Positions 14,944 through 59,108 of a DNA stretch of 64,000 nucleotides are shown here, in pieces. Below the pieces are notes generated by a model, which was not told the origin of the DNA, made no database searches, and worked only from the letters and a program-made list of their open reading frames with translations. The DNA lies in NCBI GenBank assembly GCA_021792185.1, contig JAJYVD010000002.1, positions 14,759-78,758 on the forward strand, in the 5' to 3' direction. The position numbers and the translations under genes are program-made. Numbering within the stretch: the first letter of the stretch is position 1; every line of letters begins with the position of its first letter. The stretch comes from Nitrospirota bacterium. Lineage in GTDB: Bacteria; Nitrospirota; Thermodesulfovibrionia; Thermodesulfovibrionales; Dissulfurispiraceae.

Positions 14944-14969
14944 TGGTTATAGTTGTATCACTTGGAAGC

Positions 14970-15088
14970 ATGGCACAGTATTTCCGCTCATTCTCGCCGA
15001 ACATCCATGTCCGGCTCCGAGGTACCAGCTCGGTTTCGCCATCACGGCAAAACCTTGAGCTGCTAAAACCGCTACAATACAATGCCAT
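14970..15088 (-). repeat. R1 nested-hairpin repeat, copy 1 (variant B)
   Basis: atggcacagtat...ttccgctcattctcg...ctccgagg...ccgctacaatacaatgccat. Shares the core with six other full copies. Lies between the usp stop and the ATPase start. Confidence 0.85.
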
Positions 15089-15103
15089 ACTCCCTCTATT
15101 CCA

Positions 15104-19340: not shown

Positions 19341-19535
19341 TTAGGATGAAAGGAAATCATCGATAACAGGGCAGAGTTGGCTTCCCATATCGAGTTGCAG
19401 GAAATTAGACTTAAAAGGATATTCCTTTTTATCTATCCAATTAATATCAGACATGCGGCCATTTCCTCCTGATGATATAAGGATAGCACGACATAGTATT
19501 TTGCGCTATTCCAACTTTTATAATCTGCTATTTTT

Positions 19536-19650
19536 TGTTTAATATCATCGTTATACATGGAGGCAAAAGAAACGGGCATCCGATACCTGAAGCAAGAGCC
19601 TTGCGGCAATTATCAAGAGCATGAAGGAGTGGGGAGAGAAGATAAAATAA
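19536..19650. pseudogene. fused remnants of a flavoprotein 3' end (minus strand) and an HxlR 3' end (plus strand)
   Basis: 19536-19576 matches the 3' end of gene 23817-24401 (..atcatcgttatacat.gaggcaaa..). 19595-19650 translates to SLAAIIKSMKEWGEKIK-stop, matching the C-terminus of the HxlR gene at 24513-24833. Confidence 0.55.
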
Positions 19651-21494: not shown

Positions 21495-21512
21495 AACATT
21501 CTCCTTTTTAGA

Positions 21513-21980
21513 CTATTTTACACCTTTAACAGCCGATTGATAACGGGCAAGCAGTTCAGGGTCGTCAATTGAACCGTGATGGTGGACCTGCCGCCACTGT
21601 CCGTCAAATAATTTGAATATTCTGCTTGTCCTTATTGCCAAAGGGACAACAGTATCGCCAATGCGGAATTCACCACGCTCTCTGCCAACTGCATAAAACA
21701 TTTCTTTTGTCTCATGTATTGTATAATCATAGAATTCCACATAGACTTTTGCAGGGCCGGTGAAAATTCGTTCATATACCGACCTGATTTCATTCCATCC
21801 CCGCTTGATGCCGCCGATGGGATTGTCCATGGCAATTTCATCAGTTTGAGCCCAGTTCTTTGACATCTTATCCATGTCACGATTATTGAAGGCGTTGTAA
21901 AAATCTACAAGGGCAAGCAAGGGGCCTTTCAGGTCTGCTCTGTCCTCATTGCCTGTGATAGGTGTCTGTTCTGCCTTCAT
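21513..21980 (-). CDS. SnoaL/NTF2-like fold protein (paralog 1)
   Basis: 155 aa, small alpha+beta barrel-type composition. Near-identical paralog at 23331-23798. Confidence 0.55.
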   Translation of the reverse strand: MKAEQTPITGNEDRADLKGPLLALVDFYNAFNNRDMDKMSKNWAQTDEIAMDNPIGGIKRGWNEIRSVYERIFTGPAKVYVEFYDYTIHETKEMFYAVGRERGEFRIGDTVVPLAIRTSRIFKLFDGQWRQVHHHGSIDDPELLARYQSAVKGVK

Positions 21981-23317: not shown

Positions 23318-23330
23318 ATCCTCCTTCTAA

Positions 23331-23798
23331 CTATTTTACACCTTTGACAGTCGATTGATAACGGGCAAGGAGTTCAGGATCATCGATTGAACCGTGATGA
23401 TGGACCTGCTTCCACTTCCCATCAATTAATATGAATATCCTGCTTGTCCTTATTGCTAAAGGGACAGCAGTATCTCCAATGCGAAACTCACCCCGCTCCC
23501 TGCCTACCGCATAAAACATCTCCTTTGTCTCATGGATCGTATAATCATAGAATTCCACATAGACCTTTGCAAGGCCGGTGAAAATTCGTTCATATACCGA
23601 CCTGATTTCATCCCATCCACGCTTGATGCCGCCCAGCGGATTATCCATTGCAATATCTTCAGTCTGTGCCCAGTTTTGGGACATGAGCATAATATTGCGG
23701 GTATTGAAGGCGCGGTAAAACTGAACAAGCGCGTAAAAAGGAGATGACGGGTCTTCCAGATTTTCGCTTCCTGTTATCGGTATTTGTATTGGTTGCAT
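23331..23798 (-). CDS. SnoaL/NTF2-like fold protein (paralog 2)
   Basis: 155 aa. The C-terminal ~100 residues are almost identical to those of 21513-21980. Confidence 0.55.
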   Translation of the reverse strand: MQPIQIPITGSENLEDPSSPFYALVQFYRAFNTRNIMLMSQNWAQTEDIAMDNPLGGIKRGWDEIRSVYERIFTGLAKVYVEFYDYTIHETKEMFYAVGRERGEFRIGDTAVPLAIRTSRIFILIDGKWKQVHHHGSIDDPELLARYQSTVKGVK

Positions 23799-23816: not shown

Positions 23817-24401
23817 TTATCCTGCAAGTTTACGGCCAAAGGCCATTGCCCGTTCACGAAGTTCCGCGTTTTGTTTGATGTCATCGTTATACATAGAGGC
23901 AAACGGAATGAGGAGCGATTCCAGTTCCGAACCGATAAAGCCAACGCTTGTTTTAAATACCTGCTCGACAAGACTTAAGCCGGGATTGATGTCCCCGCCG
24001 TCGGTACAGATAAGCCCCCATTTGAGATGACCCAGTTCATGCACGTATTGTCCCTTGGCAGGATCAAATTTGATGAGAGAGTACATCCTGTCCATCACGA
24101 GCTTTAATTGTGCGCTCGGCCCGAAAAAGTAGACCGGAGTGGCGAATACAACAATATCCTTCTCCGGCATTCTTGCCAATATCGGCTTTATCTCATCATC
24201 CACCGCGCACTCGTATTTTTCTGACTTCTGGCATCCCATGCAAGCAATGCAGCCGTTATTCCTGCTTTTCAGACGGGCCACGTCTACCACCTCAACAGCT
24301 GCACCCGCCTCTTTCGCTCCTTCTGCAAACCATCCCACTACAGTATTAGTATTCCCGTTTTTCCTCGGGCTGCCACTTAACATCATAATCTTTTTGCCCA
24401 T
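23817..24401 (-). CDS. NAD(P)H-dependent FMN reductase / iron-sulfur flavoprotein-like
   Basis: MGKKIMMLSGSPRKNGNT flavodoxin-like N-terminus, Cys cluster CIACMGCQKSEKYEC, and a start with GGAGG. Confidence 0.7.
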   Translation of the reverse strand: MGKKIMMLSGSPRKNGNTNTVVGWFAEGAKEAGAAVEVVDVARLKSRNNGCIACMGCQKSEKYECAVDDEIKPILARMPEKDIVVFATPVYFFGPSAQLKLVMDRMYSLIKFDPAKGQYVHELGHLKWGLICTDGGDINPGLSLVEQVFKTSVGFIGSELESLLIPFASMYNDDIKQNAELRERAMAFGRKLAG

Positions 24402-24512: not shown

Positions 24513-24833
24513 ATGGCTTATAAAACCTGCAGCGATAAGGAATGTTCGGTGGTAAAAACCCTGCGGATCATCGGCAGTAAATGGACTATTTTAATCATCA
24601 GGGACCTTCTTGACGGCAAGAAGAGATTCGGAGAACTGAGGAAGTCCCTCGCAGGAGTCAGCCCGAAAACTTTATCCGAACGTCTGAAGTCCCTTGAGAA
24701 AGAGGGAATAGCCACCAAAAAGATTTATCCCGAAGTCCCGCCGAGGGTTGAATACTCTTTGACCAAAAGAGGACAGAGCCTTGCTGCGATCATCAAAAGC
24801 ATGAAGGAATGGGGAGAGAAAATAAGCAAATAA
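24513..24833 (+). CDS. HxlR family transcriptional regulator
   Basis: 106 aa with C..V..L..IGSKWT..I.R.L...KRFGEL and a winged-helix HxlR signature. Divergent from the flavoprotein gene. Confidence 0.85.
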   Translation: MAYKTCSDKECSVVKTLRIIGSKWTILIIRDLLDGKKRFGELRKSLAGVSPKTLSERLKSLEKEGIATKKIYPEVPPRVEYSLTKRGQSLAAIIKSMKEWGEKISK

Positions 24834-29010: not shown

Positions 29011-29038
29011 AAATAACATTTAAAAACAGTCTCAAGGA

Positions 29039-29157
29039 GGATAAGGCATTATCCGCTCATTCTCGAAAGGCATCCAACCTTTCTCCGAGGCTACGCCAGC
29101 CTGCTCCGCCATCCATGGCTATGCATCGGCTGCCGAAGCCGCTTCAATGCCTTATCC
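29039..29157 (-). repeat. R1 nested-hairpin repeat, copy 2 (variant A)
   Basis: ggataaggcatt...ccgctcattctcgaaaggcatccaacctttctccgaggctacgccagc...gctgccgaagccgcttcaatgccttatcc, with a 12-bp perfect outer stem. It overlaps the 5' end of the outer-membrane factor gene. Confidence 0.85.
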
Positions 29158-47027: not shown

Positions 47028-47038
47028 GAAATCAGGTT

Positions 47039-47452
47039 TTATTTCTTCTGCATTCTGTCGCCTTTTTTCTGCATGCGATCTCCCTGCCTCTGCATGCGCT
47101 CGCCTTTCTTCTCCATCATGTCGCCCTGCTTCTGCATCATTTCTCCTCTGCGCTCCATTTTTTCGCCGGTCCTTTCCATCTTTTCAGCGGCCTTCTCGTG
47201 CCCGGCCTCCCTCATTTTTTCCGACCTTTCCTGAAGCATTTCTCCCTTCTTTTCGAGCATCTCGCCTCTCTTTCCCCTCTGCTCGCCCTTTTTCTCCATC
47301 ATCTCGCCGTGCTGCTCCCTCATTTCCCCGCGTTTCTCAAGGCGTTTTCCGGCCTTCTCTTTGGGGACAGGCCGTTCAGCCGCGATACCCTGAGGCATTT
47401 GAACCATAAGCAGTCCAAGGGCTACAGATAAACACACCAGAAGTCTTTTCAT
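47039..47452 (-). CDS. secreted Met/Lys/Glu/Gly-rich periodic repeat protein
   Basis: The start at 47452 has GGAGG. A signal peptide (MKRLLVCLSVALGLLMVQMPQGIAA) is followed by ~10 repeats of an ~11-residue unit (GEMMEKKGE / GDRMQKKGD). Confidence 0.55.
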   Translation of the reverse strand: MKRLLVCLSVALGLLMVQMPQGIAAERPVPKEKAGKRLEKRGEMREQHGEMMEKKGEQRGKRGEMLEKKGEMLQERSEKMREAGHEKAAEKMERTGEKMERRGEMMQKQGDMMEKKGERMQRQGDRMQKKGDRMQKK

Positions 47453-47542
47453 TTTCTTCCTCCATTTTTTTAATTTTGTTTTAAGTATACCACTAACCGG
47501 CGATTTATCAAATTCTTTAGAATAAGACTTATAGCACAATTT

Positions 47543-47558
47543 TGTTTCAAACGAGACA
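47543..47558 (+). promoter_or_regulatory. NifA-type upstream activator site (TGT-N10-ACA)
   Basis: TGTttcaaacgagACA followed by TAAATG, ~80 bp upstream of the nifH -24 element. The same ACATAAATG extension occurs at the nifB site. Confidence 0.6.
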
Positions 47559-47634
47559 TAAATGTAATAAAAGAAAATTAGCGGAACGGCCGGTTTCCCC
47601 ATGTTTCTTTTTAATATCAACAAATATCTGTTTC

Positions 47635-50003: not shown

Positions 50004-51526
50004 TAAGGCTAAAGATAAGAGACCATAACGACCTTTTTCAGGGGCAGGAGTATGTCGAGCAGTTCGAGCGGAAGAAAGAGTTCGAGAAGGGTCCTTCGGA
50101 CGATGAGATCAGGCGCGTGGCCGAGTGGACTAAGTCTGAAGAGTATAAAGAGCTGAACTTTAAGAGACAGAACATAAAGATAAATCCTGCCAAGGCATGC
50201 CAGCCTCTCGGCGCGGTCTTCTGCGCCTCGGGCTTTGAAGGCACGATGCCTTTTGTGCAGGGGGCGCAGGGCTGCGTGGCATATTTCAGGAGCCATCTGA
50301 ACAGGCACTTCAAGGAGCCTTTCGCGGCCATATCCACATCAATGACAGAGGATGCGGCTGTTTTCGGAGGGCTGAACAATATGCTCGAAGGGCTTGAAAA
50401 CGCCTATACGCTTTACAAGCCGAAAATGATTGCGGTCTCAACTACCTGCATGGCGGAGGTTATCGGCGACGACCTGAACGCATATATAAAACAGGCGCGG
50501 GACAAGGGCATTATCCCGAAAGATCTGCCCGTGCCGTTTGCGCACACCCCGAGTTTTGTAGGCTCATATATAACCGGCTATGACAACATGTTGAAGGGAA
50601 TACTCTCAAGCATTACGGCAGGCAAGAAAGGCGAGCCGAACGGCCCAAATAAAAATAAACTGAATTTCATTCCGGGCTTCGACACCTATACAGGCGATTA
50701 TTTCGAGTTGAAGAGGCTGATGAACATGATGGGAGTCAAGCATACTGTCTTAGCGGATGTAAGCAATGTGTTCGATTCTCCGAATACCGGCGAGTACAAG
50801 CTCTATCCGGGCGGCACTCCGCTTTCTGACGCGATGGATTCGATCAATGCCGATGCTGTTGTCGCGCTTCAGAAATACTCGACGCTTAAGACTATGGAAT
50901 ATATCGGGAAAGAATGGAATCAGAAGACTGCCGTTCTTACTCCCATAGGCATAAAAAATACGGACAGGTTTTTTGAGGAAATAAGCAAGATTACGGGCAA
51001 ACCCGTGCCTCAGGAAATAGAGGACGAGCGCGGCAGGGCTGTTGACGCGATGATCGACTCTCATCCTTACGTGCACGGAAAGAGGTTTGCGCTGGTCGGA
51101 GACCCGGACATGCTGATGGGGCTGGTGAGCTTCCTGATGGAGATGGGAGGTATTCCTGTACATATCGTCTGCACCATGGGAGATAAAAAATTCGAGGAGG
51201 ATATGAACGCCCTTTTGAGCGAGAGCCCGTTCGGAGTGGAAGCCAAGGTCTATGTAGGCAAGGACATGTGGCATTTGAGGTCTCTGCTTTTCACCGAGCC
51301 GGTAGATCTGTTAATCGGGAATTCGTACGCGAAGTTCCTCTGGAGAGACACGGAGACCCCGCTTGTCAGGATAGGGTTCCCGCTCTTTGACAGGCATCAT
51401 CTTCACAGGTATCCGGTAATCGGCTATCAGGGAGTGATAAACCTCGTGAGTTCGGTTGTGAATACGGTTTTGGATGAGATGGACAGAAAGACGATTAATA
51501 CCACGAGCTTTGATGTAATCAGGTAG
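50000..51526 (+). CDS. nifK: nitrogenase MoFe protein beta chain NifK
   Basis: [18 protein letters not shown] and P-cluster Cys positions. ATG 50000 overlaps the nifD stop (ATGA). Confidence 0.9.
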
Positions 51527-51549
51527 GAATATAGAAGGAGAGATCTGAA

Positions 51550-54258
51550 ATGACTACGGGACTGGACAAATATTTCGAGCACGGCTGCGGCGCGGAGAAG
51601 AAGGACAAGGTCTGCCGTTCGCGGGGCGGGGAATCGTGCGCATTTGACGGCGCAATGATAGTCCTTCAGCCCATAGCCGATGCCGCTCATATCGTCCACG
51701 GCCCGATTGCATGCTGCGGCAATTCGTGGGAAGGAAGGGGAACTCTGTCATCAAAGGGCAGCCTCCACAAGATGGGTTTTACAACGGATATGAGCGAGAT
51801 GGATATCATCTATGGCTCTGAAAACAAGCTCTATGAAGCGATATTGCGTACTTATGAAGCGGTAAGGCCGAAGGCGATATTTGTTCACGCAACCTGCGTG
51901 AGCGGCTTGATAGGAGAAGACATCGAGGCGGTCTGTAAAAAGGCCGAAGCATCTCTCGGCATTCGGGTGATTCCCGTAAATGCGCCGGGATTTGTCGGCC
52001 CTAAGAATCTCGGAAACAGAATAGCGGGAGAGGTTTTGCTCGATTATGTGATAGGAACCGGCAAGCCGTCTGAAGGGGACAGTCCCGATTCTACGACTTC
52101 GCTTCCCTTCGCCCGTAAATCTGGCGCCCGTAAATCCGGGACAGTCCCCAATTTAATCAATCTTATAGGCGAATACAACATAGCGGGCGATTTATGGCTT
52201 GTCGAGCCAGTCCTTAAAAAAGCAGGAATAAGGGTTCTTTCGAGGATGACAGGCGATTCGACATTTGAGGAGATAACATACGCGCACCGTGCGAAGCTGA
52301 ACGTGGTGGTATGCAGCCGCGCGTTGATAAACATTGCGAGGGAGATGGAAAGGAAATACGGAATCCCGTATATCGAAGTCTCCTTCTTCGGGAAAACCGA
52401 GATGTCGAAGGCTATGAGGCTTATCGCCTCAAATTTCAAATCTCAAATTTCAAATCTCAAATTGACGGAGAAGGTTGAAACAATCATTGAAGAGGAAGAA
52501 AAACGACTCGAAGAAAAATTGAAGGCTTATGAAAATTTGAAAGGCAAAAAGGCCGTGCTTTATACAGGCGGCGTGAAGAGCTGGTCTTTTATTTCCGCGC
52601 TTATGGATTTGGGGATAGAGATCGTCGCCGTCGGCACAAAGAAAAGCAGCCTTGAAGACGAAGAGAAGATGAAAGAGATATTGGGGCAGGATGCGCCTCT
52701 TGTTGAAGACGTAACACCCAAGAACCTGCTCAGGCTTCTGAAAGATAAAAATGCGGATATCCTCATCGCGGGCGGAAGGAACCAGTATCTTGCCGTAAAA
52801 GAGGGGTATCCATTTGTGGATGTCAATCAGGAAAGGCATACGGCATATGCGGGATACGACGGATTGATAAATTTAGCCGGGCAGATAAGCAGCGGTCTGC
52901 GCTTTTATGCAAAGCATAGGGCATACATGTCGAATAAGACTTATACTCGAAGCCATGGAAAGGGGACTGTCCAGGATTTACGGGCGGGTTCATCTATGGC
53001 TTTGGGCGAAGCCGTAGAATCGGGACTGTCCCCGCGAATTAAGAAAAAAGAAATTCTTATCAACCCGTTGAAGCACTCTCAGGCTATCGGCGCCGCTATA
53101 GCATTTCAGGGGATTGATAAGGCGCTTCCTATTATTCACGGAGCGCAGGGATGCACTTTTTTAGGAAAGGTGCTTTTGACAAAGCATTTCAGGGAGCCGA
53201 TCGCCCTCGCATCCACAAAGCTCTTTACGGAGAATGTTGTTATGGGAAGCGAGGACAATATAACAAAAACGGTCGAAGGATTTATCGAAAAGAACAATCC
53301 CGCTTTGATAGGAATTTTTACATCGGGACTCTCGGAAGTGAAGGGCGATGATATTATGGCTTCAGCGAAGGGGCTGGATGTTTCAAACGGCGGGACAACG
53401 GTGCTGCATGTCCCTACCCCGGATTATGAAGGAGGATTGGAAACAGGGTATGCGAAAGCCGTAGAGGCGATTCTTGATGTTGTTACGGGGAATGCTGCGA
53501 ATATGCGCAGTTCACGGGTCACGGAAAAACAGATTAATGTTATTTCAGGCTCGCATCTCAGCCCGGCCGATTTTACGGAACTGAGGGAGATAATAGAATC
53601 ATTCGGCTTAATGCCTATAATTCTGCCTGACCTGTCCGTGCTCGACGGAAGCAGGCAGGGTATGTCGGCCATTGCGATCGGAGGCGCAAGTATCGATGAA
53701 ATCAGCGGGATGTCGAAATCGGAATTTACCCTTGCGATAGGCTCAAGCATGGAGGCTTCCGCCAGGAAGCTGAAGGAAAGGTTCGGCATAGAATACCGGG
53801 TATTTGAGAGCATTGCCGGATTAAAGGATACGGACATGTTCATGGAGACGCTTTCGATGTTGAGCGGCAGGCCTGTTCCAAAAAAATACGAAAGGCAGAG
53901 GCGGAGTTTAATAGACGGGATGAGGGACGCGCATTTTTATTACGGCGATAAAAAGGTATGCATAGCGCTGGAGCGTGATCTGTCTATTCAGGCGTCGAGA
54001 TTGCTTGATGAGATGGGCGCTGAAATTGAAAGCGTCGATGTTAATTCGGGAGACCTGTTTTCTGTCGAGGGTAATTTTGACCTGCTTATTTCAAATTCCC
54101 ATGCGGAAGATGCAGCAAAGAGGCTCGGAGCGCCTTTGTATCAGATGGGGTTCCCTGTCTACAAAGTTCTGGGAAATAACCACAGGATTACTATCGGATA
54201 CAGAGGGACTCTGAATATGATTAATGATATAGCAAATTCACTGGCAGGAGTAAATTAG
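51550..54258 (+). CDS. nifEN: fused FeMo-cofactor scaffold NifE-NifN
   Basis: 902 aa in a single ORF. The N-terminal ~460 aa are NifE-like (CAFDGA, HGPIACCGNSWEGRG, INLIGEYNIAGD). The C-terminal ~410 aa are NifN-like (INPLKHSQAIGAAIAFQGI..IHGAQGCT). Confidence 0.85.
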   Translation: MTTGLDKYFEHGCGAEKKDKVCRSRGGESCAFDGAMIVLQPIADAAHIVHGPIACCGNSWEGRGTLSSKGSLHKMGFTTDMSEMDIIYGSENKLYEAILRTYEAVRPKAIFVHATCVSGLIGEDIEAVCKKAEASLGIRVIPVNAPGFVGPKNLGNRIAGEVLLDYVIGTGKPSEGDSPDSTTSLPFARKSGARKSGTVPNLINLIGEYNIAGDLWLVEPVLKKAGIRVLSRMTGDSTFEEITYAHRAKLNVVVCSRALINIAREMERKYGIPYIEVSFFGKTEMSKAMRLIASNFKSQISNLKLTEKVETIIEEEEKRLEEKLKAYENLKGKKAVLYTGGVKSWSFISALMDLGIEIVAVGTKKSSLEDEEKMKEILGQDAPLVEDVTPKNLLRLLKDKNADILIAGGRNQYLAVKEGYPFVDVNQERHTAYAGYDGLINLAGQISSGLRFYAKHRAYMSNKTYTRSHGKGTVQDLRAGSSMALGEAVESGLSPRIKKKEILINPLKHSQAIGAAIAFQGIDKALPIIHGAQGCTFLGKVLLTKHFREPIALASTKLFTENVVMGSEDNITKTVEGFIEKNNPALIGIFTSGLSEVKGDDIMASAKGLDVSNGGTTVLHVPTPDYEGGLETGYAKAVEAILDVVTGNAANMRSSRVTEKQINVISGSHLSPADFTELREIIESFGLMPIILPDLSVLDGSRQGMSAIAIGGASIDEISGMSKSEFTLAIGSSMEASARKLKERFGIEYRVFESIAGLKDTDMFMETLSMLSGRPVPKKYERQRRSLIDGMRDAHFYYGDKKVCIALERDLSIQASRLLDEMGAEIESVDVNSGDLFSVEGNFDLLISNSHAEDAAKRLGAPLYQMGFPVYKVLGNNHRITIGYRGTLNMINDIANSLAGVN
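52075..52149 (+). repeat. R2 palindrome-bounded 75-bp element inside the NifE coding region
   Basis: ggggacagtccc...cccgtaaatc tg gcg cccgtaaatc c gggacagtcccc. Exactly 25 codons (GDSPDSTTSLPFARKSGARKSGTVP). Confidence 0.8.
52429..52463 (+). repeat. tandem heptamer array (TCAAATY x5) inside NifE
   Basis: tcaaatt tcaaatc tcaaatt tcaaatc tcaaatt read directly. Encodes NFKSQISNLKL. Confidence 0.75.
52962..53033 (-). repeat. R2 element, inverted copy, 72 bp, in the NifE-NifN linker
   Basis: ggggactgtccaggatttacggg...gtagaatcgggactgtcccc is the reverse complement of the ends of the 52075 copy. Exactly 24 codons long. Confidence 0.8.
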
Positions 54259-54287
54259 TTGTGAGGCAGTTATTTGAGAATAATGGA

Positions 54288-54414
54288 GGAAGGGCATGGT
54301 ATTGGAGCGACTTCGGCAGCCCAAGCGTATCAAGGACAGAGGAGCGGGCTGGCGTAGCTTCGGAGGAAGGCTTGGATGCCTTCCGAGAATGAAGCGGAAA
54401 TATTATGTCCTTCC
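54288..54414 (+). repeat. R1 nested-hairpin repeat, copy 4 (variant A)
   Basis: ggaagggcat-gGTATTGGAGCGACTTCGGCAGCCC...GGAAGGCTTGGATGCCTTCC GAGAATGAAGCGGAAATAT-t-atgtccttcc. Confidence 0.9.
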
Positions 54415-54451
54415 TCAGAGAAGCATTAAACGTTTGTAAGGAGGTGCACAA

Positions 54452-54844
54452 ATGAAAATCGCATTTGCTACAACTGACGGCGTGATGGTGGACGAGCATT
54501 TCGGCAGGGCAGGAATGTTCGCGGTGTATGAATTGACCAATGACGGCTATAAATTCCTTGAGATGAGAAAGTTTGCCGAGGGAAGGGATTCGGCAGTAGA
54601 AGATACCAAGGGAATGGGACACGCTCACGACGAAAAGGTGCAGGGCAAAGTGGATAAACTGGCGGACTGCAAGATCATATATCTGACCGAAATAGGCGGG
54701 CCTTCCGCGGCCCGGCTTGCAAGAAAAGGGATTATGCCCGTAAAGGTGAAAGAGATCGTTTCGATCGAGGAGTCGATGAAGAAAATAATGGAGACAGTGA
54801 AGACATCGCCGCCGATATGGCTTAGAAAGGCGATGAATGATTAA
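54452..54844 (+). CDS. nifX: NifX/NafY-family FeMo-cofactor binding protein
   Basis: 130 aa starting MKIAFATTDG..VDEHFGRA..F.VYE (dinitrogenase FeMo-co biosynthesis domain). Confidence 0.75.
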   Translation: MKIAFATTDGVMVDEHFGRAGMFAVYELTNDGYKFLEMRKFAEGRDSAVEDTKGMGHAHDEKVQGKVDKLADCKIIYLTEIGGPSAARLARKGIMPVKVKEIVSIEESMKKIMETVKTSPPIWLRKAMND

Positions 54845-54857
54845 CAGTGGCTAATCA

Positions 54858-54985
54858 GACAGGACATAGTATTTACGCTTCATTCTCGGAAGGCATCCAA
54901 GCCTTCCTCCGAGGCTACGCCAGCCCGCTTAGCCGTCCATGGCACGCTATGGGCTGCCGAAGCCGCTCCAATACTATGTCCTGTC
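54858..54985 (-). repeat. R1 nested-hairpin repeat, copy 5 (variant A), inverted relative to copy 4
   Basis: gacaggacatagtat...atactatgtcctgtc, a 15-bp perfect outer stem. The core is nearly identical to the reverse complement of copy 4. Confidence 0.9.
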
Positions 54986-55020
54986 TATTATAAAAAACTC
55001 AATGAATAGGAGGAAGAGAA

Positions 55021-55338
55021 ATGAAGATGATCAGGGCGTTTATCAGACCGGAAAAAGAGCAGGAGGTTGTGCTGGCATTGGAGGGCGCGGGATTCCCGTC
55101 CCTTACAAAGATGCCTGTGTTCGGAAGGGGAAAACAGAAAGGGCTTCAGGTAGGTCCCGTGCATTACGACGAGCTTCCGAAGACCCTCCTAATGACGGTT
55201 GTCGATAATGAGGACGCGGACAAGGTGATCAAGATAATTCAGGATAAGGCGAAGACAGGTTTCATAGGCGACGGAAAGATATTCGTCAGCCCTGTGGAGA
55301 CCGCATATACCGTGAGAACAGGCGAGGCCGGGCTATGA
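55021..55338 (+). CDS. nifI1: PII-like nitrogenase regulator NifI1
   Basis: 105-aa GlnB-fold protein (MKMIRAFIRPEK ... GDGKIFVSPVE). Confidence 0.8.
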   Translation: MKMIRAFIRPEKEQEVVLALEGAGFPSLTKMPVFGRGKQKGLQVGPVHYDELPKTLLMTVVDNEDADKVIKIIQDKAKTGFIGDGKIFVSPVETAYTVRTGEAGL

Positions 55339-55751
55339 AAGAAATAACTGCGATCATAAGAAGGGATAAGCTCCCTGAAACAAAGACGGTGCTTGACGAA
55401 CTGGGCTACCCGTCACTCACTATCCAGAGCGTTGACGGCAGAGGAAAACAGAAAGGCGCTATGTGCGCTGAGATGGATTCAGAAATGCCTGACAGTTATT
55501 GCACTGCGGTGAAGCTGACTCCTACGCCTTCAACATATGCCCTTGAGCATACTCTTCCTAAGATAGCGCTGTATGTGCCGAAGAGGATGCTTACTATCGT
55601 GGTGCCTGATGACGTTGTGAGCAAGATTGTGAAGTCCATAATTAAGGTGAATCAGACAGGCCAGCACGGGGACGGAAAGATATTCGTCTCGCCGATAGAG
55701 GGAGCCGTAAGGGTGAGGACAGGAGAGCATGACGGAGAGGCTATAGCGTAA
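55335..55751 (+). CDS. nifI2: PII-like nitrogenase regulator NifI2 (extended T-loop)
   Basis: 138-aa GlnB-fold protein with a long insertion in the T-loop region. Overlaps the nifI1 stop. Confidence 0.8.
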   Translation: MKEITAIIRRDKLPETKTVLDELGYPSLTIQSVDGRGKQKGAMCAEMDSEMPDSYCTAVKLTPTPSTYALEHTLPKIALYVPKRMLTIVVPDDVVSKIVKSIIKVNQTGQHGDGKIFVSPIEGAVRVRTGEHDGEAIA

Positions 55752-55754
55752 GTC

Positions 55755-55885
55755 ACAGGCATGACATAGTATTTCCGCTCATTCTCGACAGGCATCCGAG
55801 CCTGTCTCCGAGGCACCGGCTCGGTTTCGCCGTCATGGCGAAACTTCGAGCCGCTGAAACCGCTTCAATACAATGTCATACCTGT
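55755..55885 (-). repeat. R1 nested-hairpin repeat, copy 6 (variant B)
   Basis: acaggcatgacatagtat...ttccgctcattctcgacaggcatccgagcctgtctccgagg...cgcttcaatacaatgtcatacctgt. Confidence 0.9.
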
Positions 55886-58813: not shown

Positions 58814-58947
58814 AAGACGTAAGACAAAGTATTGGAGCGACTTCGGCAGCCCAGGCGTTACATGGACGTTTAAGCGGGCTGGCGCAGCTTCGGAGAAAGG
58901 CCGGATGCCTTTCGAGAATGAAGCGGAAATGCTGTGTCTTACGTCTT
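58814..58947 (+). repeat. R1 nested-hairpin repeat, copy 7 (variant A) with 13-bp outer stem
   Basis: aagacgtaagaca-aaGTATTGGAGCGACTTCGGCAGCCC...GAGAATGAAGCGGAAATGC-tg-tgtcttacgtctt. Confidence 0.9.
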
Positions 58948-58949
58948 AG

Positions 58950-58984
58950 CGAAACTTAGAACTGCTAAAACCGCTCCAATACTT
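58950..58984 (-). repeat. partial R1 repeat (variant-B arm only)
   Basis: gcgaaacttagaactgctaaaaccgctccaatact matches the distal arm of copies 1 and 6. Confidence 0.6.
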
Positions 58985-59108
58985 TATCTTCCCTTACTGA
59001 TATGGTGAATATGATTTGAGGCGTTTAAATCATACAAAATTGTAATTGATTACAAGAATGTAGTTATCCCTCCCTAATGGGTTCCCTATAAATCAAGGAG
59101 ATACATGC

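What the first reader, a model, noticed from the sequence alone, without database searches (positions are those of the whole stretch)
51550..54258. NifE-NifN single-polypeptide fusion carrying two inverted, codon-exact palindrome-bounded inserts (R2)
nifE and nifN form one 902-codon ORF. Two copies of a short element bounded by the near-palindrome GGGGACAGTCCCC lie inside it in opposite orientations: 52075-52149 (75 bp, 25 codons) and 52962-53033 (72 bp, 24 codons).

The first sits in the variable loop just before the conserved INLIGEYNIAGD. The second sits in the linker joining the NifE-like and NifN-like halves, just before INPLKHSQAIGAAIAFQG. Both lengths are multiples of three.

This behaviour is that of Rickettsia-palindromic-element-like repeats, which survive only as in-frame inserts. 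The location of one copy exactly in the E-N junction raises the possibility that an insertion event created or stabilised the fusion.
Basis: partly seen in the sequence, partly recalled or inferred. Interest (0 to 1): 0.65.

Follow-up and report, generated by a model that had tools for sequence, protein, structure and literature searches.

The report
Hairpin repeats translated inside fused nifEN
Two copies of a small hairpin-forming mobile repeat sit in frame inside a nitrogenase-assembly gene (fused nifEN) of a Nitrospirota bacterium; the repeat family often lodges inside genes, as Rickettsia palindromic elements do, but it did not create the gene fusion.

Summary
ORF 51550-54258 is a 902-codon NifE-NifN fusion. 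It carries two inverted copies of one element, at 52075-52149 (75 nt) and 52962-53033 (72 nt).

The element belongs to a widespread family of about 60 nt, apparently undescribed in the papers I could search. It has two conserved inverted 20-nt ends around a variable centre, and it folds as a hairpin with compensatory changes. Copies occur in Nitrospirota, Desulfobacterota, Planctomycetia and Bacteroidota MAGs and in viral contigs.

Of 168 non-redundant copies, 89 (53%) lie in frame inside long ORFs of real genes such as MnmG, CobQ, CbiD and a phage portal. The flanks are C|element|T with no target duplication. The architecture fits a REPIN (REP doublet), but no transposase was found.

The RPE-like reading is therefore broadly supported. 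The fusion idea is not. All 120 closest homologs are fused and 117 of them lack the linker copy. A solved fused NifEN (9i0g) also lacks it.

The loop before INLIGEYN carries repeat-like peptides of several distinct types across homologs. Element subtypes found only in nifEN are shared between the two sites, which points to copying or gene conversion within the gene. This is a new member of a known kind and of moderate interest.

The parts
51550..54258 (+). nifEN: one ORF of 902 codons plus stop, encoding fused NifE-like and NifN-like halves
51550..52890 (+). NifE-like half (aa 1-447)
   Evidence: aligns to A. vinelandii NifE chains over residues 13-447, E about 5e-125
52075..52149 (+). R2 copy A, 75 nt, '+' orientation, read in element frame +1 as GDSPDSTTSLPFARKSGARKSGTVP (aa 176-200); sits in the loop before INLIGEYNIAGD
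   Evidence: hairpin fold z=-3.2; alignment gap in 9i0g here
52111..52140 (+). 15-nt tandem duplication inside copy A (GCCCGTAAATCTGGC / GCCCGTAAATCCGGG); it turns a 60-nt-type unit into 75 nt and encodes ARKSG ARKSG
   Evidence: read; compared with 60-nt copies
52429..52463 (+). Heptanucleotide tandem array (TCAAATY x5) inside nifEN encoding SNFKSQISNLK; a second kind of multicopy repeat in the same gene
   Evidence: depth spike 580 vs 79 in run X1; same peptide in many homologs
52891..53043 (+). E-N linker (aa 448-498), not aligned to separate NifE or NifN chains; coil with pLDDT about 30 in a low-confidence model
52962..53033 (-). R2 copy L, 72 nt, inverted orientation, read in element frame -2 as (K)GTVQDLRAGSSMALGEAVESGLSP (aa 471-495)
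   Evidence: fold z=-3.8; 93% identical to the site-A copy of homolog P0002
53044..54255 (+). NifN-like half (aa 499-902)
   Evidence: aligns to A. vinelandii NifN over residues 499-898, E about 4e-78

Best explanation
R2 is a pair of copies of a small non-autonomous mobile repeat.

What the family looks like (shown):
- The typical length is 60 nt. The consensus is GGGGACAGTCCCGATTCTACGACTYCGCTTCGCTCCGTCCGTAAATCYGGGACAGTCCCC.
- Two conserved inverted 20-nt ends flank a variable centre, so a single strand folds into one long imperfect hairpin.
- The family is dispersed in many anaerobic subsurface bacteria and in their phages.
- Four of its six reading frames are open, and about half of all copies sit in frame inside intact genes.

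What happens in nifEN (shown for position, inferred for translation):
- Both copies lie at permissive sites: a surface-type loop before the INLIGEYN strand, and the inter-domain linker of an already fused NifEN.
- Both are most likely simply translated into 24-25 extra Gly/Pro/Ser-rich residues.
- The two inverted copies exchange sequence within the gene, by conversion or local copying.

How it moves (inferred):
- It probably moves as single-stranded hairpin DNA, handled by a RAYT/TIRYT-type HUH tyrosine nuclease that cuts at C|T. That would explain the C...T flanks and the absence of target duplication.
- Integration is often imprecise. In nifEN the native codons were replaced rather than interrupted.
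- Selection keeps only events that preserve the reading frame and a tolerable peptide.

The element neither created nor is needed for the E-N fusion.
For: Family and spread:
- 79 loci in species-representative genomes matched the right-end 20-mer.
- 9 viral contigs matched, with most of their copies intragenic.

Anatomy:
- The ends are conserved and the centre is variable.
- Hairpin fold z-scores are -3 to -6.
- 97.8% of cells are paired. 26 cells show compensatory double changes at pairs 21:40, 22:38, 27:33 and 28:32, against 3.2 +/- 1.7 in shuffles (0 of 500 shuffles reach it).

Intragenic residence:
- 89 of 168 copies lie inside long ORFs.
- Pfam domains lie on both sides of the insert in MnmG, CobQ, CbiD, NAD(P)HX dehydratase, a class-III aminotransferase, poly(A)/CCA polymerase, a Mu portal and a radical-SAM protein that holds two copies.
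- Frame use is uneven, 48/21/10/6 (p=6e-11). Orientation relative to the host gene is biased 62:27 (p=3e-4).

Flanks:
- Position -1 is C in 68% of copies and +1 is T in 80%. There is no target-site duplication.
- E. coli RAYT cleaves at CT dinucleotides (PMC3479197).
- TIRs flanking RAYT-like genes share the motif GGGGWSAS, which GGGGACAG fits (PMC3733652).
- The REPIN definition matches: two inverted REPs, a variable spacer and compensatory changes (PMC3116915).

nifEN itself:
- Empty alleles carry FTTDYD or AQRSRKSVV in place of the element. A related strain's contig skips 52068-52155 and has 22 other bases there.
- Across 120 fused homologs the site-A loop carries R2 or one of several other repeat-like peptide types, judged by recurring peptide motifs only.
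- The 72-nt and 84-nt subtypes occur only in nifEN, at both sites and in opposite orientations.
- Other contigs at the same depth in run X1 carry the element, so the same genome has more copies.
Against: - No transposase was found. ORFs lying between element pairs are ordinary genes. The one RAYT-like gene in the loci (L051) is flanked by an unrelated GTAG REP.
- Unlike classical REP/REPIN, the GTAG lies 4 nt away from the terminal palindrome and on one arm only, and most copies are not extragenic.
- Clean filled-versus-empty alleles were not seen, so the true element ends and the insertion chemistry are not established.
- Compensatory changes in a DNA palindrome can arise from hairpin-templated repair rather than from selection.
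- Translation of the inserts is not shown. No transcripts of this gene were found in three metatranscriptomes, and there are no protein data.
- The 'inside ORF' calls rest on a stop-to-stop ORF heuristic applied to MAG and metagenome contigs. Some copies are orthologous, so they are not independent.
Confidence: 0.72

Rival explanations
1. The insertion into the E-N junction created or stabilised the NifE-NifN fusion, for example by removing the nifE stop codon and the intergenic gap.
For: - One copy lies in the linker.
- In an unrelated locus (L017) an R2 copy sits exactly between a flavoprotein-like part and a PocR/AraC-like part of one 1212-aa ORF. Elements bridging two reading frames may therefore occur.
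Against: - All 120 closest homologs are fused, and 117 of them have no R2 in the linker.
- Sister sequences P0002 and P0045 are fused without it.
- The distant fused NifEN 9i0g has a linker of similar length without it.
- The linker R2 replaced existing linker codons (AQRSRKSVV in P0022) rather than a stop or an intergenic gap.
Confidence: 0.03
2. The inserts are selected functional modules of NifEN. The extra loop and longer linker would tune docking with NifH, NifB or NifX, or inter-domain flexibility, and are retained for that reason.
For: - R2 at site A, with the same junctions, is found in at least 10 homologs across the tree, and both reading frames stay open.
- Frame use in genes is strongly non-random.
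Against: - The same two sites carry R2, repeat-like peptides of other kinds, or nothing in close relatives.
- The peptides are low-complexity and vary in length (60, 72, 75 or 84 nt).
- The same element sits in dozens of unrelated proteins.
- The insert regions are predicted as coil with pLDDT about 30, though the model is poor overall.
Confidence: 0.08
3. The element works at the RNA level. A stable hairpin in the mRNA would pause ribosomes between folding units, set mRNA stability, or be bypassed or excised, and the coding capacity would be incidental.
For: - The hairpins are strong, -25 to -34 kcal/mol as RNA, and the structure is maintained by compensatory changes.
- One arm pair varies G-C/G-U (13:48, 18 G-U cells), which is tolerated in RNA.
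- 26 intragenic copies have non-3n end-to-end lengths.
Against: - Every intragenic copy is open in the host frame, so there is no need for bypass.
- The apex triloop closed by C-G reads GNA-like on the complementary strand in most copies. From my own knowledge that is a motif of stable DNA mini-hairpins, not of RNA.
- Both orientations occur in genes.
- No Rfam family matches.
- No RNA data exist for this gene.
Confidence: 0.1
4. Assembly artefact: metagenome assemblers joined contigs wrongly at a repeat, producing apparent in-frame inserts.
For: In run X1 the contigs break at copy A, with record 1 ending at 52104 and record 5 starting at 52076.
Against: - Seven independent runs hold 84-98% of the sampled words of the region.
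- One X1 contig spans 52076-53300, including copy L, with no differences.
- Homologs from other samples and assemblers carry the element at the same two sites with the same junctions.
Confidence: 0.02

Closest known systems
Rickettsia palindromic elements (RPE; Ogata et al. 2000, as summarised in PMC10969869 and PMC3733652)
   Same: Both are dispersed palindromic repeats with open reading frames. A large share of copies is inserted in frame in unrelated housekeeping genes, and they are tolerated at permissive places in the proteins.
   Different: - R2 is about 60 nt, against roughly 100-150 nt for RPE-1.
- I did not test for sequence relation to RPEs.
- The hosts are free-living anaerobes of several phyla plus phages, not Rickettsia.
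- The centre of R2 is highly variable and can hold nested palindromes.
REPINs: REP doublets forming hairpins, mobilised by RAYT tyrosine nucleases (Bertels & Rainey 2011, PMC3116915; Messing et al. 2012, PMC3479197)
   Same: - Two highly conserved inverted units flank a less conserved spacer.
- The whole folds as a hairpin, and compensatory changes are common.
- There is no target duplication.
- The flanks are C and T, matching the CT cleavage site of E. coli RAYT.
- A GTAG lies in one arm.
   Different: - No RAYT flanked by R2 was found.
- The GTAG is 4 nt from the terminal palindrome and is GTAA on the other arm.
- Each 13-nt end is too short to be a typical REP hairpin.
- 53% of copies are intragenic, whereas REPINs are extragenic.
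Intragenic GTAG/CGTC REPs and the 'TIR' repeats of RAYT-like TIRYT genes (Di Nocera et al. 2013, PMC3733652)
   Same: That paper reports REPs inside genes of several species, mostly as dimers that encode 20-30 amino acids. It also reports that TIRs next to RAYT-like genes share the motif GGGGWSAS. The R2 ends GGGGACAG fit that motif, and R2 encodes 17-30 amino acids.
   Different: Thermodesulfovibrio and Geobacter are not mentioned in its main text. The link from R2 to a TIRYT rests on an 8-nt motif only and remains untested.
Naturally fused ('bifunctional') NifEN
   Same: One polypeptide carries a NifE-like half and a NifN-like half, as in PDB 9i0g (919 aa), the Dissulfurispira thermophila protein named 'NifEN2' by NCBI, and cyanobacterial NifE-NifN fusions.
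   Different: The window's protein additionally carries two R2 copies and a heptamer-repeat segment. The fusion itself is ordinary for this clade.

Membership tests
Fused NifEN (FeMo-cofactor maturation scaffold) | NifE-like and NifN-like Oxidored_nitro halves in one reading frame, located next to nifHDK | tested here: met
   Pfam PF00148 E=6e-196. NifE aligns to residues 13-447 and NifN to 499-898, and the fused chain 9i0g aligns to 24-897. A NifK-like ORF lies directly upstream. Relatives show the order nifH-D-K-EN-X.
Fused NifEN (FeMo-cofactor maturation scaffold) | Biochemical activity (L-cluster to M-cluster maturation) | not testable with these tools
   Sequence only. The conserved blocks HGPIACCGNSW, ATCVSGLIGED and NLIGEYNIAGD are intact.
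RPE-like in-frame palindromic repeats (behavioural class) | A multicopy palindromic repeat with a large share of copies in frame inside intact genes | tested here: met
   89 of 168 copies lie inside long ORFs. The host genes were verified with Pfam. The same holds in viral contigs.
Rickettsia palindromic elements proper (RPE-1 to RPE-10) | Sequence homology to an RPE family, in Rickettsiales hosts | not tested
   No RPE sequences were compared. The hosts here are Nitrospirota, Desulfobacterota and others, so I claim only the behaviour, not membership.
REPIN / REP-RAYT system | Two inverted conserved units around a variable spacer that fold into a hairpin with compensatory changes | tested here: met
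REPIN / REP-RAYT system | A cognate RAYT gene flanked by the same repeat | tested here: inconclusive
   None was found among ORFs lying between element pairs in about 200 loci. A tblastn probe found only one RAYT-like gene, and it is flanked by a different GTAG REP. Whole genomes could not be searched.
REPIN / REP-RAYT system | GTAG tetranucleotide at the foot of each REP hairpin, with cleavage at CT | tested here: inconclusive
   GTAG is present on one arm only, 4 nt from the palindrome, and the other arm reads GTAA. The flanks, C at -1 (68%) and T at +1 (80%), fit CT cleavage. The cleavage itself was not tested.
REPIN / REP-RAYT system | Predominantly extragenic location | tested here: not met
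   Only 58 of 168 copies are outside long ORFs.
Classical MITE (deletion derivative of a DDE insertion sequence) | Terminal inverted repeats plus a target-site duplication | tested here: not met
   Terminal inverted repeats are present, but direct repeats of 4 nt or more occur at chance level (1 of 164 copies).
Rfam RNA families | Match to a curated covariance model | tested here: not met
   No match at E<=1 in 51000-55500.

The most novel reading that the evidence does not exclude
R2-type elements would be a distinct class of hairpin mobile DNA adapted to living inside coding sequence. Supporting features are four open frames, mostly hydrophilic loop-like peptides, and imprecise 'replace a few codons' integration. 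On this reading they are carried between phyla by phages, and they act as a recurrent source of loop and linker variation. Occasionally they would weld neighbouring reading frames into one, as the L017 ORF suggests. Copying within a gene would keep copies alike.
Probability: 0.15. Interest if true: 0.7.

Novelty: new member of a known kind. Interest (0 to 1): 0.45.

Why it matters
In-frame 'selfish DNA' inside essential enzymes is best known from Rickettsia. Here a different small hairpin element does the same thing in free-living anaerobes of several phyla and in their phages, and about half of its copies are intragenic.

NifEN of Thermodesulfovibrionales is a natural experiment. Across relatives the same loop and the same linker carry R2, other repeat-like peptides or nothing. 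That marks where this nitrogenase scaffold tolerates 20-50 extra residues, which is useful for engineering tags or fusions.

There are practical consequences too. Such elements inflate and fragment gene calls, break assemblies, and create spurious low-complexity 'families' in metagenomic protein catalogues.

The C|T flanks and the REPIN-like build give a concrete, testable hypothesis for the mobilising enzyme.

Tried and rejected
- Structure prediction of the 902-aa protein from 29 close homologs gave a poor model: mean pLDDT 52 and pTM 0.42. I used it only to note that both inserts are predicted coil. No fold search was run on it.
- RNA evidence: three metatranscriptomes from the same study hold nothing from nifHDK-EN.
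- Rfam gave no match.
- A literature search for the core sequence found only unrelated primers and oligonucleotides.
- Clean empty-site comparison failed. Homologs and a related strain's contig show other codons in place of the element, not a precise gap. The exact ends and any footprint remain open.
- Target-site duplication: none.
- Extra enrichment of 3n lengths inside genes: none (Fisher p=0.47).
- Transposase hunt: ORFs between element pairs are an RNase T-like exonuclease, ORF6N, GemA, a MuB-like ATPase, NUDIX, SLT and LysR proteins. A RAYT sequence recalled from memory, used only as a probe, found one real Y1/HUH-like ORF in L051 (motifs read by eye). It is flanked by GTAGCCGCAGGCTTTAGCCTGCG, a different REP. 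My Pfam call on that ORF failed because of a coordinate error in a companion query and I did not repeat it.
- Hydropathy alone does not explain frame choice. The most hydrophilic open frame is used only 10 times.
- The automatic site-A labels printed on the NJ tree were wrong because my regular expression hit an earlier LIGE. I used that tree for topology only and took the site states.
Full report
**1. The observation**

The window holds a single 902-codon ORF at 51550-54258. Pfam finds nitrogenase component-1 type domains across it. Against solved structures, residues 13-447 align to NifE and residues 499-898 to NifN of Azotobacter vinelandii. The best hit overall is a 919-residue chain, 9i0g_A, that covers both halves.

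A NifK-like ORF lies directly upstream. Relatives show the gene order nifH-D-K-EN-X followed by two P-II genes.

The near-palindrome GGGGACAGTCCCC, allowing one mismatch, occurs three times in 64 kb against 0.02 expected. All three hits are at the ends of the two reported units. The two units are inverted copies of each other, with arms 96% complementary.

The lengths are 75 and 72 nt. Copy A (52075-52149) is codon-aligned and covers aa 176-200. Copy L (52962-53033) is 3n long but starts at the third base of codon 471 and ends at the second base of codon 495. Copy A also contains a 15-nt tandem duplication at 52111-52140.

**2. What the element is**

I scanned public collections with 20-nt end sequences.
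- 79 loci came from species-representative genomes.
- 9 came from viral contigs.

The genome records are labelled Nitrospirota or Thermodesulfovibrionales, Deltaproteobacteria or Desulfuromonadales, Syntrophaceae, Smithellaceae, Planctomycetia and Bacteroidota. A few isolated hits, in Nocardia and Oceanobacillus, lack the other end of the element and are probably chance matches.

The commonest form is 60 nt: GGGGACAGTCCCGATTCTACGACTYCGCTTCGCTCCGTCCGTAAATCYGGGACAGTCCCC. Forms of 50, 52 and 54 nt have shorter centres. Forms of 72-102 nt carry extra material in the centre, often a second nested palindrome of the CCCCC...GGGGG type.

Each form folds into one long imperfect hairpin, with z-scores of -3 to -6. 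On 50 distinct 60-nt copies, 97.8% of cells pair. The four pairs that vary do so almost entirely by double, compensating changes: 26 cells against 3.2 +/- 1.7 in shuffles, and 0 of 500 shuffles reach that number. One end of every sampled copy was fixed by the search pattern, so only the centre is informative.

No Rfam family matches. A full-text search for the core sequence found nothing relevant.

**3. Where copies sit**

After removing duplicates I had 168 complete copies.
- 89 (53%) lie inside a stop-to-stop ORF of at least 200 aa, with at least 30 aa on each side.
- 21 lie within 30 aa of an ORF end.
- 58 lie in short ORFs or none.

Pfam on ten host ORFs shows real genes with domains on both sides of, or around, the insert. 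They are MnmG, CobQ (between its two domains), CbiD, NAD(P)HX dehydratase, a class-III aminotransferase, a poly(A)/CCA polymerase, a Mu-type portal, a TPR/PD40 protein and a radical-SAM protein with two copies. Viral contigs show the same habit, for example copies inside ORFs of 2002, 811 and 774 aa.

Four of the six frames of the consensus are open. Their use in genes is 48 (GTVPDLRTERSEVVESGLSP), 21 (GDSPDSTTSLRSVRKSGTVP), 10 and 6, which is far from even (p=6e-11). Orientation relative to the host gene is biased 62:27 (p=3e-4). The window's two copies use the two commonest frames.

Lengths divisible by three make up 68% of all copies. The share is the same inside genes (71%) and outside them (64%; p=0.47). 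So 3n is a property of the dominant 60-nt form rather than a visible result of filtering.

Twenty-six intragenic copies have non-3n end-to-end lengths, yet the host frame continues. For those copies the palindrome ends cannot be the limits of the inserted DNA.

**4. Flanks and likely mechanism**

The base before the element is C in 68% of copies and the base after it is T in 80%. There is no target-site duplication.

The build matches the published definition of REPINs: two conserved inverted units, a variable spacer, and a hairpin with compensating changes (PMC3116915). The E. coli REP-associated tyrosine nuclease cuts single-stranded DNA at CT dinucleotides and needs a GTAG near the hairpin foot (PMC3479197). 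R2 has GTAG on one arm and GTAA on the other. The inverted repeats that flank RAYT-like 'TIRYT' genes share the motif GGGGWSAS (PMC3733652), which GGGGACAG fits.

These are resemblances, not proof. In about 200 loci I found no Y1 nuclease bracketed by R2 ends. The one RAYT-like gene I did find is flanked by a different GTAG REP. The mechanism is therefore an inference and I hold it at roughly one chance in three.

**5. History in nifEN**

All 120 best homologs are fused NifEN of 840-993 aa from Nitrospirota MAGs, and one is from Dissulfurispira thermophila. Length differences concentrate at a few sites.

At site A, before INLIGEYN:
- About 45 homologs have a minimal nine-residue loop such as EPPFTTDYD.
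- About a dozen carry R2 or a remnant of it.
- Many others carry peptides typical of other G+C-rich palindromic repeats, for example NPPSPPFAKGG...PPLKKGDEGGF and SPLNLRGDERGV.

In the linker only P0001 (the window), P0003 and P0006 carry R2. Others have a short linker or different repeat-like peptides.

At the DNA level the filled alleles share junctions: CCT GAA|R2|TTA ATC at site A, and R2|GCGAATT in the linker. The empty alleles carry other codons in place of the element (FTTDYD; AQRSRKSVV), so the event was a replacement and not a clean insertion. A contig from a related strain in run X8 shows the same thing. It skips 52068-52155 and has TTCATTTACGACCGATTATGAC instead.

On a neighbour-joining tree the states are patchy. 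P0001 has both copies. Its sister P0002 has only site A. P0003 has only the linker copy, and P0003's sister P0045 has neither. This needs repeated loss or replacement, or recombination between alleles.

Two subtypes of the element centre occur nowhere in my roughly 200 loci except in nifEN.
- The 72-nt type is at site A in P0002 and in L011, and inverted in the linker of the window (93% identical).
- The 84-nt type is at both sites of P0006 (94% identical) and at site A in L065.

This is best explained by copying or gene conversion between the two inverted copies within the gene.

**6. The fusion hypothesis**

Homologs without the element already have the fusion and a linker. The distant fused structure 9i0g has a linker of similar length with no R2. 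Fused NifEN is also recorded in cyanobacteria. I put the idea at about 3%.

There is one side observation. In L017, an R2 copy lies exactly between a flavoprotein-like part and a PocR/AraC-like part of one 1212-aa ORF. A methionine three codons after the element looks like the regulator's own start. This could be a real element-bridged fusion or an assembly chimera at a repeat. I did not resolve it.

**7. Is it real DNA, and is it expressed?**

Seven independent DNA runs, from mine drainage, tailings and sediment, hold 84-98% of the sampled words of the region. One X1 contig spans 52076-53300 without any difference. Several other X1 contigs at the same depth (82-97 against 79-81) carry the element, so the same genome very likely has more copies. 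Assemblers do break at copy A, as expected for a repeat.

No RNA evidence exists. Three metatranscriptomes from the same study hold nothing from this operon. Translation of the inserts is therefore inferred from the open frame and from the conservation of that frame across homologs.

The structure prediction was of low quality (mean pLDDT 52). It shows both inserts as coil with pLDDT near 30, which is weak support. The alignment gap in the solved 9i0g chain at site A is better support.

**8. Verdict**

The finding describes a real feature and correctly recognises it as RPE-like. It is a member of a widespread, apparently undescribed REPIN-like hairpin repeat family with a strong habit of in-frame residence in genes. 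NifEN of this clade is a hot spot for this and other repeat-like inserts at two permissive sites. The link to the origin of the fusion is not supported.

Novelty: a new member of a known kind. Interest: moderate.

Limits:
- The ORF heuristic rather than gene calls.
- Sampling by exact 20-mers.
- MAG quality.
- Non-independence of orthologous copies.
- No transposase found.
- No expression data.

Noticed in passing
window 14968-15090, 29038-29158, 31837-31954, 54292-54411, 54861-54982, 55759-55881, 58822-58990: A second repeat family of about 122 nt with 13-bp terminal inverted repeats (AGGACATAGTATT...AATACTATGTCCT). Two copies in inverted orientation (88 nt, 89% complementary) bracket the nifX-like ORF 54452-54844. 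In relatives L001 and L002 nifX abuts nifEN without them. No Rfam match in 51000-55500.
   Followed up: partly
window 52429-52463: Five tandem heptamers (TCAAATY) inside nifEN encode SNFKSQISNLK. The same peptide recurs in many homologs. Read depth over this stretch spikes to 580 against 79 in run X1, so the array is multicopy in the community. Other short arrays of period 7-8 lie at 2221, 4875, 7526, 7606 and 8281.
   Followed up: partly
window 47035-47350 (minus-strand ORF 47039-47623): A degenerate 21-nt-period tandem array of about 10 units, just upstream of the nifH-like ORF. It probably encodes a 7-residue repeat protein.
   Followed up: no
L017:3187-6822 (-): A 1212-aa ORF joins a FAD/fumarate-reductase-like part (aa 1-585) to a PocR/AraC regulator part (aa 627-1204), with an R2 copy exactly at the junction (aa 594-613). 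This is either an element-bridged gene fusion or an assembly chimera at the repeat.
   Followed up: partly
L051:1392-1892 (-): A 166-aa ORF with HUH-like (PDHQHL) and YILDNPV motifs, resembling a REP-associated tyrosine transposase. It is flanked by GTAG-tagged REPs (GTAGCCGCAGGCTTTAGCCTGCG), a family different from R2. It lies between two heptosyltransferase-like genes (named by eye), one of which carries a 59-nt R2-like insert.
   Followed up: partly
L041, L133, L205-L213: R2 copies lie inside genes of Mu-like prophages and viral contigs: a portal gene, near GemA and MuB-like genes, and in ORFs of up to 2002 aa. One viral contig holds three copies. Two of the source metagenomes are the same ones that hold NifEN homologs P0002 and P0006.
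   Followed up: partly
alignment A1, columns about 110-165, 340-400, 800-850 and the C-terminus: NifEN homologs carry further repeat-like inserts at other sites, for example LQGDFVRGT, RHSGLSGIFPKKDCRQAAMTD, CEARSAEAISKEKGLLRFARNDRQ and C-terminal tails HWKLSPSPTPPIKGGES. Several different repeat families appear to use this protein.
   Followed up: no
window 21512-21811 and 23330-23629; 19533-19645 and 23869-23908 / 24775-24825: A 300-nt direct repeat at 89% identity and neighbouring shorter repeats suggest a duplicated gene segment about 30 kb upstream of the nif cluster.
   Followed up: no
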